Source of the DNA: an uncultured bacterium
Lineage (GTDB): Bacteria; Armatimonadota; Hebobacteria; CAIYQO01
Direction: 5' to 3'
Length of the DNA stretch: 64,000 nucleotides
Assembly: GCA_903928345.1 (NCBI GenBank)
Contig: CAIYQO010000266.1
Span: 2,029 to 66,028, forward strand
Positions 10,467-61,197 of this stretch are shown in pieces. The notes under the pieces are model-generated. The model saw nothing but the letters and a program-made list of their open reading frames with translations, had not been told where the DNA came from and ran no database searches. The position numbers were made by a program, and so were the translations under genes. The stretch's first letter is position 1; each line of letters opens with the position of its first letter.

Positions 10467-10549
10467 AATCGTAATCGTGCTCGTGCTCGTAATCGACCGT
10501 ACCCTCGGGCAAAAGCGTATCGATTACGATTACGAGCACGAGCACGATT
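10467..10549. repeat. long imperfect inverted repeat built from hexamer units (AATCGT)2(GCTCGT)2AATCGA / TCGATT(ACGATT)(ACGAGC)2ACGATT
   Basis: Arms at 10467-10496 and 10520-10549. Sits between convergent genes (HK and metalloprotease), consistent with a bidirectional terminator or REP-like element. Confidence 0.5.
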
Positions 10550-11287: not shown

Positions 11288-11404
11288 CGCTTGCTCCCCT
11301 TACCCGTCGTTTATGGTATACTTCCAGCATAACATACCCATACTGTGGCGTCTCACACAGAGGTGTACAGCAAAGCAGGTAATTGCTTTGTCTGTAATAC
11401 TTTG

Positions 11405-11436
11405 TTGACGTTCTGTTGAGGTTTTCGTGTTACAAT
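11405..11436 (+). promoter_or_regulatory. candidate promoter with extended -10 (TGtTACAAT) and TTGACG -35-like
   Basis: TTGACG at 11405-11410, TG at 11428-29, TACAAT at 11431-11436. AGGAGG RBS at 11464-69 before ATG 11478. Confidence 0.35.
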
Positions 11437-11477
11437 AATCCAAGAGGCAATTCGCCTATCCAGAGGAGGAGGTTTCC

Positions 11478-11903
11478 ATGAAGAAAGTACTCGTTAGTCT
11501 CGTTTGCGTGGCCGTCCTGGCCAGTGCACTTGCCGCGTTCGCGCAGGCGCCGGCCAAGACTGCCCCGAAGGCTAAGGCTACGACAACGGCGAAGGCGCCC
11601 GTCAAGACCACCGCCAAGACCGCCGCCAAAACCACAGCCACGAAACCGGCGACCACGAAAAAGGTTGCGGCTCCGAAGAAGGCTGCCCCCGTTGCCAAGT
11701 CCGCTCCCGTGAAGAAGACCGCCAGCAAAAAGATGGTCAATAAGCACAAAAAGCACGGCAAAAAAGGCAAAAAGGGCGCCAAAAAGATGATGAAGCCCGC
11801 GACGAAGACCACCAAGCCGGCCGTGAAGACCGCTCCGAAGGCTGCCAAGCCGGCCCCGAAGGCCGCCCCGAAGGCCGTCAAGCCGGTCGCGAAGAAGAAA
11901 TAA
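11478..11903 (+). CDS. secreted lysine/alanine-rich low-complexity protein (histone H1-like composition)
   Basis: 141 aa. Signal peptide, then AKAP/KTTAK/PKKAA repeats. Strong RBS. Confidence 0.65.
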   Translation: MKKVLVSLVCVAVLASALAAFAQAPAKTAPKAKATTTAKAPVKTTAKTAAKTTATKPATTKKVAAPKKAAPVAKSAPVKKTASKKMVNKHKKHGKKGKKGAKKMMKPATKTTKPAVKTAPKAAKPAPKAAPKAVKPVAKKK

Positions 11904-11926
11904 GACCTGTACACACGTACACCCAC

Positions 11927-11966
11927 GGCCCCCGGCAAATCGCCGGGGGCCGTGTTGTTTGTATTT
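11927..11966 (+). terminator. intrinsic terminator
   Basis: Stem GGCCCCCGGC / GCCGGGGGCC with an AAATC loop, followed by GTGTTGTTTGTATTT. Confidence 0.6.
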
Positions 11967-12150
11967 GGGATTGGGGCGGGAGGGGGAGAGCGAGTCGCCT
12001 GCCTGGTGTTTGTCTGAACCTTGATTTGTCGGATTACTGGATGCCCTTGATTACATTGAGAGGAAAGCGGAAATCAGGGTAATCCGTTCATTCCATCAAT
12101 CAGGGTTCAGACAAGAACCGACCGTTCTTCCCCCCGCCCCAATCCAAAAT
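11961..12150. repeat. composite nested MITE-like element. Outer IR is GGGATTGGGGCGGGAGGGGGA / TCCCCCCGCCCCAATCC. Inner element at 12010-12114 has TTGTCTGAACC...GGTTCAGACAA termini.
   Basis: Inverted termini read directly from the sequence. The inner termini match the TIR family seen at 58088 and 59263. Confidence 0.5.
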
Positions 12151-12159
12151 CCAAGTGAC

Positions 12160-13790: not shown

Positions 13791-13987
13791 CGGCGCCGGG
13801 TGCCCCCCCCGATTGCATCGGGGCAGGCTCCGGCTGATCGTCTCAAGCATGCTGATGCTCTTTGACAATTGTTTGCGGCTCGGGTAGCAGCTACGTGCGT
13901 TCGGCCTGTAGGGCATGGGCGCCGTCCCATGCCTGGTCGCCGCATTCCTATTCCGCTGGAGCAGCGAGCAATGGCCGACGCAAATTT

Positions 13988-14141
13988 TGGGAGGGCGAGC
14001 GTCCCCGCGAGCCGCGCGCGAGGCAGCCGTAGATGACAAAAAGACGGCCTGGACGTGAAACCCCTACACACATCCAGGCCGTCTTCTGTTAGCGATTCCC
14101 GGCTCAATTGCACGCGGCTCGCGGGGACGCTCGCCCTCCCA
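13988..14141. repeat. 154-bp element with a perfect 28-nt terminal inverted repeat and a nested inner hairpin
   Basis: GGGAGGGCGAGCGTCCCCGCGAGCCGCG at 13989-14016 is the exact reverse complement of 14113-14140. The inner hairpin has a 14-bp stem, GAAGACGGCCTGGA / TCCAGGCCGTCTTC (about 14040-14053 and 14072-14085). Confidence 0.55.
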
Positions 14142-14280
14142 AGGTTCTCACGGCGCTTCTCTGTTGGCTCCATCGGCATAGACCTGCGACGGGCAGACAG
14201 GGGCGGATGCGTACCCGTGAGGTAAATCAACGGACCGACTGGAAGTCGGTCCGTAAGTGATAAAACGACCGTATGGTGCC

Positions 14281-39081: not shown

Positions 39082-39160
39082 CGTTCCACGTTCCACGTTC
39101 CAAGTTCAACGGGATGACCGACTTGCGTATCGCGTTGAACCTTGAACGTGGAACGTGGAA
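39082..39160. repeat. near-perfect 29-bp stem hairpin built from (GTTCCAC)3
   Basis: CGTTCCACGTTCCACGTTCCAAGTTCAACG ... CGTTGAACCTTGAACGTGGAACGTGGAAC. Starts 1 nt after the stop of 38238..39080. Confidence 0.55.
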
Positions 39161-39180
39161 CTCGTCCGAAGGACGCTTGC

Positions 39181-41382: not shown

Positions 41383-43566
41383 ATGCAGCCGTTGACCTTC
41401 GACCACACCAGTTTCCTCGCGAACGGGGAGCGCATCTTTCTCATCTCCGGCGAGGTGCACTACTTCCGCGTGCCGCGGGCGGGGTGGGGCGATCGGCTGC
41501 GGAAGATGCAGGACGCCGGGGGCAACTGCGTGGCGACCTATGTCCCCTGGCTGCTGCACGAGCCGGAGGAGGGGCGCTTCGACTTCGACGGCGCGCAATT
41601 GGAACTGGAGGCCTTTCTCGACCTCTGCAACGAGGTGGGCCTCTGGGCGCTGGTGCGGCCCGGGCCGTATCAGTACTCCGAGCTGGCGTACGACGGCCTG
41701 CCCGGCTGGTTGTGCGAGGGGTATCCCACCCTGCGCGCGCAAAACCTGGCGGGCAAGGATTTCCGCGTCTCCTCCATCTCCTACCTGCACCCCGACTTCC
41801 TCGCCAAGGCGCGCCGCTGGTTCCACGAGGTGGCGCCGCGCATCGCCCGGCACCTCACCTCGCACGGGGGCGCCGTGGCGGCGGTGCAAGTGGATAACGA
41901 ATTGATGGGCATCCACGAATGGTTCGGCAGCCTGGATTACCACCCCGCGGCGATGGGCGTGGGACGGGAGATGGGGCGCTGGCCGGCCTTCCTGCAGACG
42001 CGCTACGGTTCGCTGGACGCGGTGAACGCCGCCTACGGCCTGCGTGCCAAGACGTGGGCAGCGGTGCGACCTCTCGACGCGGTGACCGCCGGCACGCCGG
42101 AAGAACGGCGGCGCGTGCAGGACTACGCGGAATGCTACCGCGGCAGCGTGGCCCACTACGCGCGCATCCTGGCCGATTGGCTGCGCGAGGGCGGCGTGGA
42201 CGTGCCCATCGTGCACAACTCGCCCAACCCCACGTCGAACGCCGACTTCCGCGAGCTGGTCGAACGCATGGGGCCGGACTTCCTGCTCGGTTCGGACCAC
42301 TACTACGCACTGGACATGGACTGGGACGGCAACAACCCCACACCGAAGTATGCCGCCAAATGCTTCTACTCCCTCGAGGAGTTGCGCCACTTCGGCGTGC
42401 CGCCCACCGTGTTCGAAATGCCCGGCGGCAGCCTGTCCGACTTCCCGCCCGTCACCGCTCACGACGCCGAGTGCGCCTACCTGCTCAACGTGGCCTACGG
42501 GTTGAAGGGGTACAACTACTACATCTTCGCCGGGGGTTACAACGTGCCCGGCACCGGCACCACCAGCGAAGTCTACGACTACGGCGCGGCGGTCTCCCCC
42601 GACGGCGAGTTGCGCCCCCTCTACGGCGCGCAGCAACGGCTGGGGCAATTCCTGGCCGACCACCGCTGGCTCGCGGGCGCGGGGTGCGCCGCCGATTGCC
42701 GCATCGGGCTGCTGTGGGAGTACAGCCGCGCGGGTAAGCACGGGGCCGACCACAAGGGCGGCATCGACTTCTCCGCCGCCGACGCGTGGGGACTCTTCTG
42801 GAAGGGCCTGCTGATGACCGCCTTCAGCGCCGGACTCACCCCGGAACTGGCGGATCTCGCCAGCGACGACGTGCTGGCGCGCCTGGATCTCCCCCTCGTG
42901 GTGCCCACGGCGCACACGATGTCCCGCGCCGTGCAAGAAGGCCTGGTCGACTTCGTGCGGGCGGGGGGGCAGTTGCTCCTTGCGCCGGTGGTGCCCGCCC
43001 TCGACGAAGCGTACCGCCCGTGCACCGTGCTGGCGGACTTCCTCGGCGCGCCGGTGCAGGAGGCCTACCGCTGCATGGCGCCGCTGCTCACCGCCTTCGA
43101 CGTGCGCAACGTCTTTGTGAACGGCGGCCTCTTCGCCACCACCGCCCGCCCCGAGGACGCCGTGCCGGTGGCCGTGGAGGAGCGCGGGAACCGCGAGATC
43201 GGCTGGCGCCGCGCCTACCCCGGCGGCGGCTGCGCCACCATACTCGGCCTGCACTGGAAACACGCCAAGCACGAACACGCGACCATGCTCGCCAACGCCC
43301 TCACCGACCTCGGCCTGCAGCGCCGCGTGCAGTGCAGCAACCCGTTGATCTGGACGGCCTTGCGCAGCGACGGGCAACGCACCATGCTCTTTCTGCTCAA
43401 CCTCTTCACCGCCCCGCTCACCACCCGCGTCTCCTTCCGCGACACCACCGGCACGTGGATCGACACCGGCGAGCACACCCTCCCCGGCATCTCCGTCACC
43501 GCGTGGACGGACGGGCGGGTGGTGTATAACACGGCGGATGGGGCGAAAATAGGAGGACGGGGATGA
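41383..43566 (+). CDS. glycoside hydrolase family 35 beta-galactosidase-like
   Basis: ISGEVHYFRVP...WGDRLRKMQDAG.N.VATYVPW.LHEPEEG.FDF.G...LE.F...C...GLWALVRPGPY...E...GLPGWL. Nucleophile region VQVDNELMG. Confidence 0.8.
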   Translation: MQPLTFDHTSFLANGERIFLISGEVHYFRVPRAGWGDRLRKMQDAGGNCVATYVPWLLHEPEEGRFDFDGAQLELEAFLDLCNEVGLWALVRPGPYQYSELAYDGLPGWLCEGYPTLRAQNLAGKDFRVSSISYLHPDFLAKARRWFHEVAPRIARHLTSHGGAVAAVQVDNELMGIHEWFGSLDYHPAAMGVGREMGRWPAFLQTRYGSLDAVNAAYGLRAKTWAAVRPLDAVTAGTPEERRRVQDYAECYRGSVAHYARILADWLREGGVDVPIVHNSPNPTSNADFRELVERMGPDFLLGSDHYYALDMDWDGNNPTPKYAAKCFYSLEELRHFGVPPTVFEMPGGSLSDFPPVTAHDAECAYLLNVAYGLKGYNYYIFAGGYNVPGTGTTSEVYDYGAAVSPDGELRPLYGAQQRLGQFLADHRWLAGAGCAADCRIGLLWEYSRAGKHGADHKGGIDFSAADAWGLFWKGLLMTAFSAGLTPELADLASDDVLARLDLPLVVPTAHTMSRAVQEGLVDFVRAGGQLLLAPVVPALDEAYRPCTVLADFLGAPVQEAYRCMAPLLTAFDVRNVFVNGGLFATTARPEDAVPVAVEERGNREIGWRRAYPGGGCATILGLHWKHAKHEHATMLANALTDLGLQRRVQCSNPLIWTALRSDGQRTMLFLLNLFTAPLTTRVSFRDTTGTWIDTGEHTLPGISVTAWTDGRVVYNTADGAKIGGRG

Positions 43567-43694
43567 ATGAAAAGTGAAAAGTGAATAATGGAAAATGAAA
43601 ATTGGCGGGTTTCGGCCTAATAGAAGACGGTTACACCTTCTGAACGGCCATTCCCAATTTTCACTTTCAACTTTTCATTTCTCACTTTTCATTC
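43565..43694. repeat. AT-rich long imperfect inverted repeat (GAATGAAAAGTGAAAAGTGAATAATGGAAAATGAAAATTGG / CCAATTTTCACTTTCAACTTTTCATTTCTCACTTTTCATTC)
   Basis: Arms of about 40 nt at 43565-43605 and 43654-43694. AT-rich in a 70% GC background. Lies between GH35 and the amidase. Confidence 0.5.
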
Positions 43695-49499: not shown

Positions 49500-49660
49500 G
49501 TACGAAAACCGCAAAGACGCAGAGTACGCAAAGGGGACACGAAGGGAAACGGATTGGGCCAAGGTGGAATGTCATGGCCGAACACAAACATCTACGTGTG
49601 AAGTTGAAAAATCTCTTCGCGGTCTCCTTTGCGTCCTTTGCGTCTTTGCGGTTTTCGTAC
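49500..49660. repeat. MITE-like element with 35-nt near-perfect TIRs (GTACGAAAACCGCAAAGACGCAGAGTACGCAAAGG / CCTTTGCGTCCTTTGCGTCTTTGCGGTTTTCGTAC)
   Basis: Three mismatches in 35 nt. The 91-nt spacer is itself 59% AT. Confidence 0.5.
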
Positions 49661-53101: not shown

Positions 53102-53177
<76 letters not shown>

Positions 53178-53189
53178 ACGCACAGGATT

Positions 53190-53218
53190 ATGATACCTCA
53201 ACGCCGGCGGGGTGTCAA
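53190..53218 (-). promoter_or_regulatory. promoter TTGACA-17-TATCAT for tRNA-Ala
   Basis: Reverse complement of 53190-53218. Confidence 0.45.
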
Positions 53219-53243
53219 TAGCCGTTGTGAGGCACGTCGCGCC

Positions 53244-53272
53244 TTGACCCCACCCAGGCGCGCGGGTACAAT
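53244..53272 (+). promoter_or_regulatory. promoter TTGACC-17-TACAAT for tRNA-Arg
   Basis: -35 at 53244-49 and -10 at 53267-72. The tRNA starts at 53282. Confidence 0.5.
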
Positions 53273-53281
53273 ACGACAGGC

Positions 53282-53358
<77 letters not shown>

Positions 53359-58000: not shown

Positions 58001-58087
58001 GGCAAAGCACTCCCGGGTGGAATTTCTACGTAGAAAGACACGTTAACGGGGCAAACGTTGCGGGGATCACGACGCCTCGCCGCGCAA

Positions 58088-58255
58088 TTGTCTGAACCGG
58101 GATTTGGGGGGATGAAAGGATTTCCGTGATGGGAGAACGGAATAAGGCTTGCATGGCTGCGAATCACGGGAGGAAATGAGAGGGAATATGGGATTTCTCA
58201 ATTCGTTCCCCCATCATGGAAATCCCTGAATCCCCCCAAATCCCGGTTCAGACAA
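58088..58255. repeat. 168-bp MITE-like element with about 52-nt TIRs (TTGTCTGAACCGGGATTTGGGGGGAT... / ...ATCCCCCCAAATCCCGGTTCAGACAA)
   Basis: Arms at 58088-58140 and 58204-58255 with about 5 mismatches. Lies in the upstream region of gene 54257..58000. Confidence 0.6.
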
Positions 58256-58364
58256 TTCCGATTCCAAGCGCGCCGCGCGGAGCTTGTAGCGGATCGACGG
58301 TTCGTCGGAAGCCAGCATTTGTTTGAGGATCGGTTCCATCGCGCGACCATGTTTCTCGGGAACG

Positions 58365-59018: not shown

Positions 59019-59051
59019 CCGTAATCGTGCTCGTGCTCGTGCTCGTAATCG
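59019..59051. repeat. hexamer-unit element GTAATCGT(GCTCGT)3AATCGA, the same unit set as 10467-10496
   Basis: Direct sequence identity of the units. Located about 75 nt upstream of the start of the zinc-ribbon gene. Confidence 0.4.
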
Positions 59052-59091
59052 AAAATCCATACAACAACGCGAATCCTCCTCATCCCCAATA

Positions 59092-59190
59092 CTGTTCAAA
59101 TCTGAAAAGTGGCACGGGCGTCCCGCCCGTGGGACCTTCGTCGTGGCCTGGCCGTCTCGGCCATGCCACTTTTCAGATTTGAACGGTATT
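59092..59190. repeat. nested palindromes: 20-nt perfect IR TTCAAATCTGAAAAGTGGCA / TGCCACTTTTCAGATTTGAA, plus inner CACGGGCG-TCC-CGCCCGTG
   Basis: Read directly from the sequence. Confidence 0.45.
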
Positions 59191-59221
59191 GCCGTGATCC
59201 GCAACTGAGCACGCTCAACCA

Positions 59222-59284
59222 TGTTCTCCCATCATGTAAATCCCTTCATCCCCCCAAATCCCGGTTCAGACAATTCCGATTCCA
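59222..59284. repeat. solo copy of the right TIR of the 58088 element plus 11 nt of shared flank (direct repeat of 58204-58266)
   Basis: GTTCTCCCATCATGTAAATCCCTTCATCCCCCCAAATCCCGGTTCAGACAATTCCGATTCCA. No TTGTCTGAACC left end was seen nearby. Confidence 0.55.
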
Positions 59285-61101: not shown

Positions 61102-61197
61102 GCGTCACTCGTCATCGTAACGCGTTATCGTCGTCGAAATCGGTCGTCTGTCCGTCCGATTACGATAACGCGTTACGACGACGATGACGATTAATGG
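61102..61197. repeat. hairpin-forming repeat built from CGTCG and TAACGCGTTA units. A related direct copy lies at 61990-62058.
   Basis: Shared blocks ACTCGTCATnGcGTTATCGTC and GATAACGnGnTACGACGACGAnnCGATT at both ends of the comB-like gene. Confidence 0.4.

What the first reader, a model, noticed from the sequence alone, without database searches (positions are those of the whole stretch)
12010..12114. Second member of the TTGTCTGAACC MITE family, nested inside another inverted-repeat element
The element at 12010-12114 has termini TTGTCTGAACCtTGATT / AATCAGGGTTCAGACAA, matching the 58088 family. It sits inside an outer inverted repeat (GGGATTGGGGCGGGAGGGGGA at 11967-87 versus TCCCCCCGCCCCAATCC at 12129-45). 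This gives a roughly 190-bp composite between the convergent 3' ends of two genes, directly after an intrinsic terminator. Nested insertion implies the family was transpositionally active.
Basis: seen in the sequence. Interest (0 to 1): 0.6.

Follow-up and report, generated by a model that had tools for sequence, protein, structure and literature searches.

The report
Gene-less copy of nuclease-carrying hairpin element
The 105-bp inverted repeat is a real, gene-less copy of a small hairpin-ended DNA element found in more than a dozen bacterial phyla; its full-length copies carry one small nuclease gene of unknown function, so it is more than an ordinary genome-specific MITE.

Summary
E1 (12010-12114), E2 (58088-58255) and a half copy E3 (ending 59273) share about 45-nt arms, not just an 11-mer. 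Each arm is [A/T]TTGTCTGAACC followed by 3-4 GATT units about 9 nt apart.

The family is not specific to this genome, which is probably Armatimonadota. The same arms occur in over a dozen phyla as pairs, solo arms, tandem arrays and nested copies.

- **No classical transposon marks:** 126 pairs show no target-site duplication, and no DDE transposase lies between arms.
- **One recurrent gene:** the only gene family repeatedly enclosed is GxxExxY (TIGR04256/PF13366), a small PD-(D/E)XK nuclease. All 9 such ORFs in arm-selected loci adjoin arms in one fixed orientation. One is intact (541 bp) and two are frameshifted.
- **Matched ends:** divergent GxxExxY genes carry different periodic-unit inverted repeats.
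- **Turnover:** close Mucilaginibacter relatives have one gene junction empty, holding this hairpin, or holding a four-helix-bundle (23S-rRNA-IVS protein) cassette.

E1 is best read as an ORF-less derivative of a nuclease-encoding hairpin mini-element built like a 23S rRNA intervening sequence. The outer inverted repeat is real but unique, so nesting is plausible but unproven. How the element moves is unresolved.

The parts
12010..12052 (+). E1 left arm: TTGTCTGAACC terminus, then GATT units at 12023, 12032 and 12049 plus a degenerate GATG at 12040
   Evidence: (nhmmer 29 bits)
12053..12071 (.). E1 core, 19 nt, no ORF
12072..12114 (-). E1 right arm, ending GGTTCAGACAA
   Evidence: (26 bits)
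11959..11983 (+). Left arm of the outer inverted repeat (TTGTATTTGGGATTGGGGCGGGAGG). It has GGATT-like units but is not a scorable family member
12130..12154 (-). Right arm of the outer inverted repeat
11924..11954 (+). Intrinsic-terminator-like hairpin of the upstream Lys/Ala-rich gene (13-bp stem plus T-rich tail)
58088..58255 (.). E2, a complete 168-bp sister element. Arms lie within 58083-58146 / 58197-58260 (64 nt, 86% complementary). It sits about 88 nt upstream of the start of the 1247-aa gene
59215..59273 (-). E3, a solo right arm matching E2 arms at 42 of 45 positions. The 11 nt outside it (TTCCGATTCCA, 59274-59284) repeats 58256-58266

Best explanation
E1, with E2 and E3, is an ORF-less copy of a family of small DNA elements bounded by hairpin-forming inverted arms.

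**Anatomy.** A full-length element is about 450-550 bp. It has a left arm (TTGTCTGAACC plus 3-4 GATT units spaced about 9 bp), a single GxxExxY gene for a roughly 130-aa PD-(D/E)XK nuclease, and a right arm. The protein's C-terminal tail runs into the right arm.

**Shown**
- The gene decays or is deleted, leaving 80-250-bp hairpins such as E1.
- Copies occur as pairs, solo arms, tandem arms and copies nested at the centre of other palindromes.

**Inferred**
- The encoded nuclease recognises the phased GATT units and the invariant GTCTGAACC end of its own arms, and promotes copying of the element.
- Copying runs through a break-and-repair (homing-like) or hairpin-targeted route rather than staggered-cut DDE transposition. 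This would explain the missing target-site duplication and the preference for palindromic sites.
- When transcribed, the paired arms form a long double-stranded RNA stem. By analogy with 23S rRNA intervening sequences, RNase III could remove it, making insertions near or inside transcription units tolerable.

At this locus E1 lies in the loop of a 25-bp outer inverted repeat, just after a terminator and between two convergent genes.
For: **The family is real and extends past the 11-mer**
- Arm logo from 145 arms: GATT is found at the second unit in 74-79% of them.
- An arm profile finds 229 arms in 118 genome loci plus the window.
- Pairs occur in Bacteroidota, Poribacteria, Desulfobacterota, Ignavibacteriota, Fibrobacterota, Nitrospirota, Chloroflexota, Planctomycetota, Spirochaetota, Armatimonadota and others.

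**Link to GxxExxY**
- A profile search of all ORFs in the held loci found 9 GxxExxY ORFs, every one adjacent to or bracketed by family arms.
- Only 8.3% of 2905 control ORFs of similar size lie within 60 nt of an arm. The 3' side of the gene is always a right-type arm (6 of 6).
- The ORFs are confirmed as TIGR04256 / PF13366. D, E and K of the catalytic motif are invariant.
- Read directly: L209 is an intact 541-bp element, L135 has the stop codon inside the arm, and L191 is decayed.
- Of 121 left-right pairs, three hold the gene, and two of those (L155, L191) are frameshifted.
- E1 and E2 arms align with the arms flanking these genes.

**Protein-first samples**
- Both genes close to this subfamily carry GATT/TTGTCTGAACC arms.
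- Distant genes (37-43% identity) carry other periodic-unit inverted repeats of 26-44 nt. About 7 of 10 lineages are bracketed.

**Mobility**
- The Mucilaginibacter ybbR|coaE junction is empty in L308 and L309.
- It holds this hairpin in L013.
- It holds a four-helix-bundle gene cassette in L304, whose YbbR is 96% identical to that of L013.
- It holds a different hairpin in L315 (97% identical).

**No duplication, palindromic flanks**
- Direct flank matches equal the control. Inverted flank complementarity is in excess: 19 against 5.9 at k=3, reached by 0 of 500 shuffles.
- Elements lie inside a flanking inverted repeat in 6 of 69 cases against about 2.6 expected.

**Stem**
- The 256-nt region folds at -136.6 kcal/mol, z = -8.7.
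Against: - No GxxExxY gene is present in this 64-kb window or in 87 kb from relatives. A cognate nuclease in this genome is therefore not shown.
- No biochemical or comparative result shows that the nuclease binds or cuts the arms.
- A four-helix-bundle gene sits in a cassette of the same build. Both proteins could therefore be cargo rather than engine.
- Three PDDEXK_3 lineages on viral contigs show no flanking inverted repeat within 160 nt.
- Most arm-gene associations come from loci that were selected for having arms.
- No clean filled-versus-empty pair was obtained for this family. In L013 the hairpin sits inside the remnant of another element.
- At the E1 locus the relatives are too distant to date or prove an insertion.
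Confidence: 0.6

Rival explanations
1. The arms are a vehicle moved by some other factor acting in trans. Candidates are a Y1/RAYT-like HUH transposase, a hairpin-targeting recombinase, or host template switching. On this view GxxExxY and four-helix-bundle genes are only passengers, much as integron cassettes carry diverse ORFs.
For: - Two unrelated small genes occupy cassettes of the same build: GxxExxY and the four-helix-bundle gene.
- The interior of one Mucilaginibacter element is swapped among close relatives while its right arm stays.
- In all three loci that hold a Y1_Tnp gene (L052, L157, L186), family arms lie within 5-30 nt of the REP-like repeats flanking that gene.
- Lack of duplication, and copies occurring as solo, dimer or cluster, resemble REP and TIR repeats of tyrosine transposases (PMC3733652).
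Against: - Each Y1 gene is bracketed by its own, different inverted repeats, not by family arms.
- Three Y1 genes in about 1.9 Mb is not an enrichment.
- Arm type changes with GxxExxY subfamily, as expected if protein and ends co-evolve. That is not expected for a passenger.
- The gene has a fixed orientation, and its C-terminus is encoded in the arm.
Confidence: 0.22
2. It is a classical MITE: a deletion derivative of an insertion sequence, moved in trans by a DDE transposase that recognises the terminal inverted repeats.
For: - Terminal inverted repeats, small size, AT-richness, intergenic position and multiple copies.
- The ends read 5'-TG...CA-3' one base in from each terminus, as in many DDE elements. 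This is read from the sequence and rests on general knowledge.
Against: - No target-site duplication at any of four boundary offsets for k = 2-7 in 44 pairs, nor for k = 1-6 in 126 pairs.
- No recurrent transposase-like ORF inside solo arms or near arms.
- Long-range arm pairs enclose ordinary genes.
- No match in plasmid or phage collections.
Confidence: 0.08
3. It is a functional RNA or DNA hairpin kept by selection (terminator, mRNA stabiliser or processing site) rather than a mobile element. The E1 composite would then be one long hairpin that grew in place by template switching between its arms.
For: - The whole of 11955-12158 folds as one stem. The + strand, which is the sense strand of the upstream gene, folds better (-136.6 against -120.9 kcal/mol) because arm mismatches become G-U pairs.
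- E1 lies directly after a terminator and between convergent genes.
- The window holds at least seven other intergenic hairpins whose arms are short tandem units.
Against: - No Rfam family matches at gathering score, in the window or in 18 loci. Only weak chance-level hits appear.
- Across loci there is no preference for the transcribed strand: 3 against 4, and 4 against 8.
- Elements also lie in divergent promoter regions and within ORFs, and E2 lies upstream of a gene start.
- Cores are unrelated between copies.
- The same ends occur across phyla and around a nuclease gene.
Confidence: 0.07

Closest known systems
23S rRNA intervening sequences (IVS) carrying an S23p / four-helix-bundle ORF (Leptospira, Coxiella, Salmonella)
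   Same: - Both are small (about 100-750 nt) AT-rich elements bordered by terminal inverted repeats that pair into a long stem.
- Some carry one small ORF and others none.
- Distribution is sporadic and suggests horizontal transfer.
- Origin and mobility mechanism are unknown (PMC4990558).
- In Mucilaginibacter, a cassette with exactly this protein family (TIGR02436/PF05635) occupies the same junction as the TTGTCTGAACC hairpin.
   Different: - The copies here are intergenic, not in 23S rRNA helix 25 or 45.
- The cargo of this subfamily is a PD-(D/E)XK nuclease, not a four-helix bundle.
- The arms are built from phased 9-nt units with an invariant 11-nt end shared across phyla.
- RNase III excision has not been tested.
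MITEs (miniature inverted-repeat transposable elements)
   Same: They are short, ORF-less, AT-rich, multi-copy and intergenic, with terminal inverted repeats. A longer version sharing the same ends carries a gene.
   Different: There is no target-site duplication. The gene in the long version is not a known transposase type. Solo arms, tandem arms and centre-of-palindrome nesting are common.
REP/REPIN elements with RAYT, and TIR repeats with TIRYT tyrosine (HUH) transposases
   Same: There is no target-site duplication. Copies occur as singles, inverted dimers and clusters. Repeats are hairpin-forming and extragenic (PMC3733652). Family arms lie next to such repeats in three loci.
   Different: A single arm is not itself a palindrome and carries no GTAG or CGTC tag. 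Y1 genes are not bracketed by these arms. REPs are normally lineage-specific, whereas these ends are conserved across phyla.
Free-standing homing endonuclease genes
   Same: Both are a small nuclease gene acting as a selfish unit, inserting without target duplication. The flanks tend to be palindromic, as expected for a dimeric nuclease whose site is split by the insertion.
   Different: Homing genes do not normally carry long terminal inverted repeats. They do not spawn hundreds of ORF-less copies at unrelated sites. No target site has been defined here.

Membership tests
TTGTCTGAACC/GATT-arm element family (defined here) | Arm made of [A/T]TTGTCTGAACC followed by 3-4 GATT units at 8-10-nt spacing, with two arms in inverted orientation | tested here: met
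   E1 arms score 29 and 26 bits with the arm profile, and E2/E3 arms 25-27 bits. They align with arms from other phyla and from GxxExxY-containing copies.
TTGTCTGAACC/GATT-arm element family (defined here) | A cognate GxxExxY gene is present in the same genome | not testable with these tools
   Only 64 kb of the source genome is available, and it holds no GxxExxY ORF. The source contig could not be retrieved.
MITE (classical, DDE-mobilised) | Terminal inverted repeats, small size, no ORF, multiple copies | tested here: met
MITE (classical, DDE-mobilised) | Target-site duplication flanking the element | tested here: not met
   Direct flank matches equal the shuffled control for k = 1-6 in 126 pairs, and at four boundary offsets in 44 pairs. 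E1 flanks are ggtgt / gaacc and E2 flanks are cgcaa / ttccg.
MITE (classical, DDE-mobilised) | An autonomous IS with the same ends encoding a transposase | tested here: not met
   No recurrent transposase ORF appears inside or next to arms in about 300 loci. The only recurrent enclosed gene is GxxExxY. Whole genomes were not scanned.
REP / REPIN (RAYT-associated) | A 20-40-nt unit that is itself an imperfect palindrome with a GTAG (or CGTC) tag; the RAYT gene is flanked by the repeats | tested here: not met
   Arms have no internal palindrome or tag. The Y1_Tnp genes in L052, L157 and L186 are flanked by other repeats.
23S rRNA intervening sequence | Terminal inverted repeats forming a long stem around a variable or ORF-bearing interior | tested here: met
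   Folds. ORF-bearing copies. A four-helix-bundle cassette.
23S rRNA intervening sequence | Located in helix 25 or 45 of a 23S rRNA gene and excised by RNase III | tested here: not met
   E1, E2 and E3 are intergenic, and Rfam finds no rRNA in the window. RNase III cleavage is not testable here.
Curated structured-RNA family (Rfam 15) | A match at the family's gathering score | tested here: not met
   Only two tRNAs are found in the window and one tRNA in 18 loci. The best sub-threshold hit is Cyano-2 at 15 bits against a cut-off of 40.
Integron attC site / gene cassette | RYYYAAC ... GTTRRRY core sites, a single hairpin at the 3' end of each cassette, arrays next to an integrase | tested here: not met
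   The ends GTCTGAAC / GTTCAGAC each carry one base too many for the core consensus (read from the sequence; consensus from general knowledge). Arms bracket the gene on both sides. No integrase association was seen.

The most novel reading that the evidence does not exclude
GxxExxY proteins (TIGR04256/PF13366, listed as function unknown) may be the mobility enzymes of a previously unrecognised class of selfish mini-elements.

Each element would be one roughly 130-aa PD-(D/E)XK nuclease gene between co-evolving hairpin arms made of phased short units. It would spread without target duplication into palindromic or hairpin sites, shed large numbers of ORF-less hairpins, and cross phylum boundaries.

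The 23S rRNA intervening sequences and the many intergenic tandem-unit hairpins of Bacteroidota, Planctomycetota, Armatimonadota and other phyla would then be products of the same process.
Probability: 0.3. Interest if true: 0.85.

Novelty: new variant of a known kind. Interest (0 to 1): 0.62.

Why it matters
- **Two orphan families get a context.** GxxExxY and the four-helix-bundle / 23S-IVS proteins are large, widely annotated families with no assigned role. The hairpin link gives them a testable context as genes of hairpin-bounded selfish cassettes.
- **A possible answer on IVS origin.** Where 23S rRNA intervening sequences come from has been open since about 1990.
- **Annotation and assembly.** It would explain a common, unannotated class of intergenic hairpins that breaks assemblies and confuses terminator and sRNA prediction.
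- **A possible new enzyme class.** If the nuclease is the engine, it would add a PD-(D/E)XK enzyme acting alone to the known kinds of DNA-element mobilising enzymes.
- **This locus.** E1 itself is a decayed passenger with no evident effect beyond adding a long stem downstream of two convergent genes.

Tried and rejected
- **Rfam.** Whole window, 18 related loci, and two permissive local scans gave nothing beyond tRNAs and chance-level hits.
- **Literature search for the 11-mer.** Only primers and unrelated hits. REP and MITE papers do not contain the motif.
- **BLAST collections.** A consensus element against plasmids and a tandem-array unit against GenBank phages gave nothing useful.
- **First ORF clustering around arms.** It missed the GxxExxY link because of length and start-codon filters. 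An iterated profile search recovered it.
- **Long-range arm pairs as candidate autonomous elements.** L104, L095, L141 and L157 enclose ordinary genes.
- **Y1/RAYT as the partner.** Three loci were found, each with its own different repeats, so this is kept only as a rival.
- **Empty-site test at the E1 and E2 loci.** Relatives are too distant, or synteny breaks at E2. The exact source contig is not retrievable.
- **Outer inverted repeat as a degenerate family member.** It looks similar by eye but has no profile support.
- **RNA-level selection.** No strand bias in folding or in solo-arm orientation: 14 against 6, not significant.
- **Other protein libraries.** PDB sequence and profile searches, PHROGs and PADLOC gave no match for GxxExxY.

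Full report
**1. The observation**

The sequence is as described. TTGTCTGAACCTTGATT starts at 12010 and AATCAGGGTTCAGACAA ends at 12114. The 11-mer occurs five times in the window against 0.45 expected: at both ends of E1, at both ends of E2 (58088-58255), and once more at 59263-59273.

That last site, E3, is a solo right arm. With the 11 nt outside it (TTCCGATTCCA) it repeats the right end of E2.

The E1 arms are 12010-12052 and 12072-12114. The repeat finder reports them, with 5 flanking nt each, as 48 nt and 73% complementary. The outer inverted repeat (11959-11983 / 12130-12154) is 25 nt and 88% complementary. A 13-bp GC-rich hairpin with a T-rich tail (11924-11954) precedes it.

The flanking genes converge. 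One is a Lys/Ala-rich secreted protein with no Pfam match. The other is a SpoIIM-family membrane protein, whose homologues at about 60% identity are named Armatimonadota.

**2. The repeat is more than an 11-mer**

All five arms in the window align over about 45 nt. The shared pattern is TTGTCTGAACC, two variable bases, then GATT units every 8-10 nt.

- E2 and E3 arms match each other at 41-42 of 45 positions.
- E1 arms match E2 arms at 31-34 of 46, so E1 is an older or different subfamily copy.
- E1 is 43% GC and E2 50%, in a window of 66%.

**3. The family is spread across phyla**

Fifteen specified bases in 596 Gb should give roughly a thousand chance hits. Even so, 74-79% of the 145 arms carry GATT at the second unit, so most hits are real.

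Forty-five inverted pairs lie 80-400 bp apart. A profile built from the arms finds 229 arms. By record title the hosts include Bacteroidota, Poribacteria, Desulfobacterota, Ignavibacteriota, Fibrobacterota, Nitrospirota, Chloroflexota, Planctomycetota, Spirochaetota, Thiotrichaceae, Acidobacteriota and Armatimonadota.

Cores are unrelated between copies.

A metagenome scan with the E2-type end gave 105 more loci, all 34-50% GC. The arm variant seen in this 66%-GC genome is therefore nearly the same as in low-GC Bacteroidota-like organisms. IMG/VR contigs also hold real copies, including tandem arrays inside prophage-like regions.

**4. What it is not**

- **Not a curated RNA family**.
- **Not under visible RNA-level selection.** RNA folding shows no preference for the transcribed strand. 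Elements lie in tandem, convergent and divergent intergenic regions and sometimes inside ORFs.
- **Not a classical DDE MITE.** There is no target-site duplication in 44 pairs at four boundary offsets, nor in 126 non-redundant pairs. No transposase-like ORF recurs inside or beside arms.
- **Flanks extend the palindrome instead.** At 3 bp this is 19 against 5.9 expected, reached by 0 of 500 shuffles. Elements lie inside a flanking inverted repeat in 6 of 69 cases against about 2.6 expected. Three of those are nested exactly at the centre of an outer copy of the same family (L053, L180, L181).

**5. The partner gene**

An iterated profile search of every ORF in the held loci, seeded with a GxxExxY protein seen next to an arm (L078), found nine such ORFs. 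All nine are adjacent to or bracketed by family arms. They are TIGR04256 / PF13366 proteins, and the D...ExK residues are invariant.

The layout is fixed: left arm, about 20 nt, ATG, gene, right arm. The last codons and the stop lie in the AATC units of the right arm. The 3' side is always a right-type arm (6 of 6). Only 8.3% of 2905 control ORFs lie that close to an arm.

Among 121 left-right pairs most are 50-250 bp. Three hold the gene: intact in L209 (541 bp) and frameshifted in L155 and L191. This is the decay series expected if short hairpins derive from gene-bearing copies. E1 and E2 arms align with the arms around these genes.

**6. Co-variation, and its limits**

Two protein-first searches of viral contigs found further GxxExxY genes.

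- The two close to the L078 type (58-64% identity) have GATT/TTGTCTGAACC arms.
- Distant ones (37-43%) are bracketed by other 26-44-nt inverted repeats built from other short units: ACACGAA, GTTTCAT, CGCGAAAAG, CACGAAAAG.
- Three lineages show no inverted repeat within 160 nt. Bracketing is therefore common (about 7 of 10 lineages) but not universal.
- The L314 arm type resembles the window hairpin at 49500-49660.

**7. Evidence of turnover**

In Mucilaginibacter the ybbR stop and coaE start overlap (TAATG) in L308 and L309.

| Locus | YbbR identity to L013 | Content of the junction |
|---|---|---|
| L308, L309 | 85-88% | empty |
| L013 | reference | the 87-bp family hairpin plus a remnant of a TTGCTCC-unit arm |
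| L304 / L305 | 96% | a 627-bp insert: a TIGR02436 four-helix-bundle (23S-rRNA-IVS protein) gene between TTGCTCC-unit arms |
| L315 | 97% | a different hairpin inside the same right arm |
| L306, L307, L316 | 87-88% | an ORF-less remnant; in L306 a 16-bp duplication of the junction was read |

The interior of such elements is therefore replaced on short time-scales, and nesting inside another hairpin element is normal. This is indirect support for mobility. It is not a clean filled-versus-empty pair for this family.

**8. The E1 locus itself**

Relatives at 75% SpoIIM identity have SpoIIM followed directly by the M10 peptidase gene. They lack the Lys/Ala-rich gene and have no hairpin. Relatives at 64% have the convergent Lys-rich gene with only plain terminator hairpins. 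None of these 76 kb holds a family arm. E1 and its outer repeat are thus lineage-specific additions, but the insertion cannot be dated.

The outer repeat has no second copy in the window and no profile support as a family member, although it contains GGATT-like units. The 256-nt region around the composite folds as one stem (-136.6 kcal/mol, z = -8.7). The + strand folds better than the - strand (-120.9).

At E2, synteny with the nearest relative breaks just beyond the promoter region of the 1247-aa gene.

**9. Known relatives**

The published class closest in architecture is the 23S rRNA intervening sequence. It is a terminal-inverted-repeat-bordered, sometimes ORF-bearing, horizontally acquired element excised by RNase III. 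Its origin is described as unclear (PMC4990558).

PF13366 is listed as function unknown with multiple transfers (PMC3424549). Five papers in the searchable library mention GxxExxY, TIGR04256 or PF13366. The two that were opened do not link it to inverted repeats, and the titles of the others are unrelated. REP/RAYT and TIR/TIRYT systems share the lack of duplication and the solo/dimer/cluster habit (PMC3733652), but they fail the membership tests here.

**10. Verdict**

- The MITE reading is partly right: an ORF-less element with inverted-repeat ends, from a real family.
- It is wrong in the implied mechanism: there is no duplication and no IS partner.
- Nesting is plausible but not demonstrated at this locus.
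- The best explanation is an ORF-less derivative of a GxxExxY-nuclease mini-element.
- Whether the nuclease is engine or cargo is the main open point.

Noticed in passing
window 39083-39161, 10473-10549, 43565-43694, 49500-49660, 61109-61184, 13987-14142, 59087-59191: At least seven other intergenic hairpins have arms made of short tandem units, such as (GTTCCAC)n, (GTGCTC)n, GAAAAGT units and CGCAAAG units. The 49500-49660 arms resemble the inverted repeats that bracket a GxxExxY gene in L314. These may be ORF-less relics of sister element families.
   Followed up: partly
window 58197-58266 and 59215-59284: The E2 right arm plus 11 nt of outside flank (TTCCGATTCCA) is repeated about 1 kb away as E3, in direct orientation. 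Between them lie a small zinc-ribbon membrane-protein gene on the - strand (PF17032) and another hairpin. How this arm-plus-flank duplication arose is unexplained.
   Followed up: partly
window 59030-59056 and 10473-10549: The motif AATCGTGCTCGTGCTCGTAATCG occurs as a hairpin at 10473-10549 and again as a single arm (with one extra GTGCTC unit) next to the E2-E3 region. It is a second small repeat family in this window.
   Followed up: no
window 11288-12159 compared with L224 11008-11062: The whole 870-bp stretch between SpoIIM and the M10 peptidase is missing in the 75%-identity relative, which has a 53-bp spacer. The stretch holds the Lys/Ala-rich secreted-protein gene, its terminator and the E1 composite. 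A more distant relative (L227) does have the Lys-rich gene.
   Followed up: partly
L236 2438-2880, L253 10438-10897, L299 5993-6667: Three or more complete family elements lie in tandem at a period of about 156-178 bp. In L236 and L299 they are separated by a conserved roughly 70-nt spacer (…ATATCGGGAC…GGTGACAGTAGTTTGTCAGTG…), between a ClpP-like protease/scaffold gene and a tape-measure gene of a Bacteroidota prophage-like region. L253 shows the same period but was not read.
   Followed up: partly
L119 500-701 and 1536-1805; L130; L135 1-145: Tandem arrays of one arm only occur here, with 3-4 right arms at a period of about 51-59 nt. Each arm is repeated together with 12-15 nt of its outside flank.
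   Followed up: no
L052 3300-4215, L157 6815-8266, L186 30-1128: In all three loci that hold an IS200-like Y1 transposase gene, a family arm lies within 5-30 nt of the REP-like hairpins flanking that gene. Either hairpin repeats of different kinds cluster, or one kind targets the other.
   Followed up: partly
L095 1655-1696: A high-scoring arm (33 bits) lies inside the reading frame of an L-aspartate-oxidase-like ORF. Ten of 65 solo arms fall inside long ORFs. This suggests in-frame insertions like those of Rickettsia palindromic elements.
   Followed up: no
L278, L245, L251 (one 42-kb viral contig, 57-61% GC): Five solo right-type arms all have the same orientation. Two of them sit a few nucleotides upstream of a ribosome-binding site and start codon.
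   Followed up: no
L228 8072-9310 compared with window 53105-53355: The 81%-identity relative carries a phage-integrase gene and small HTH genes next to the aldolase gene. At that position the window has two divergent tRNA genes. This is probably an integrated element at a tRNA in the relative.
   Followed up: no
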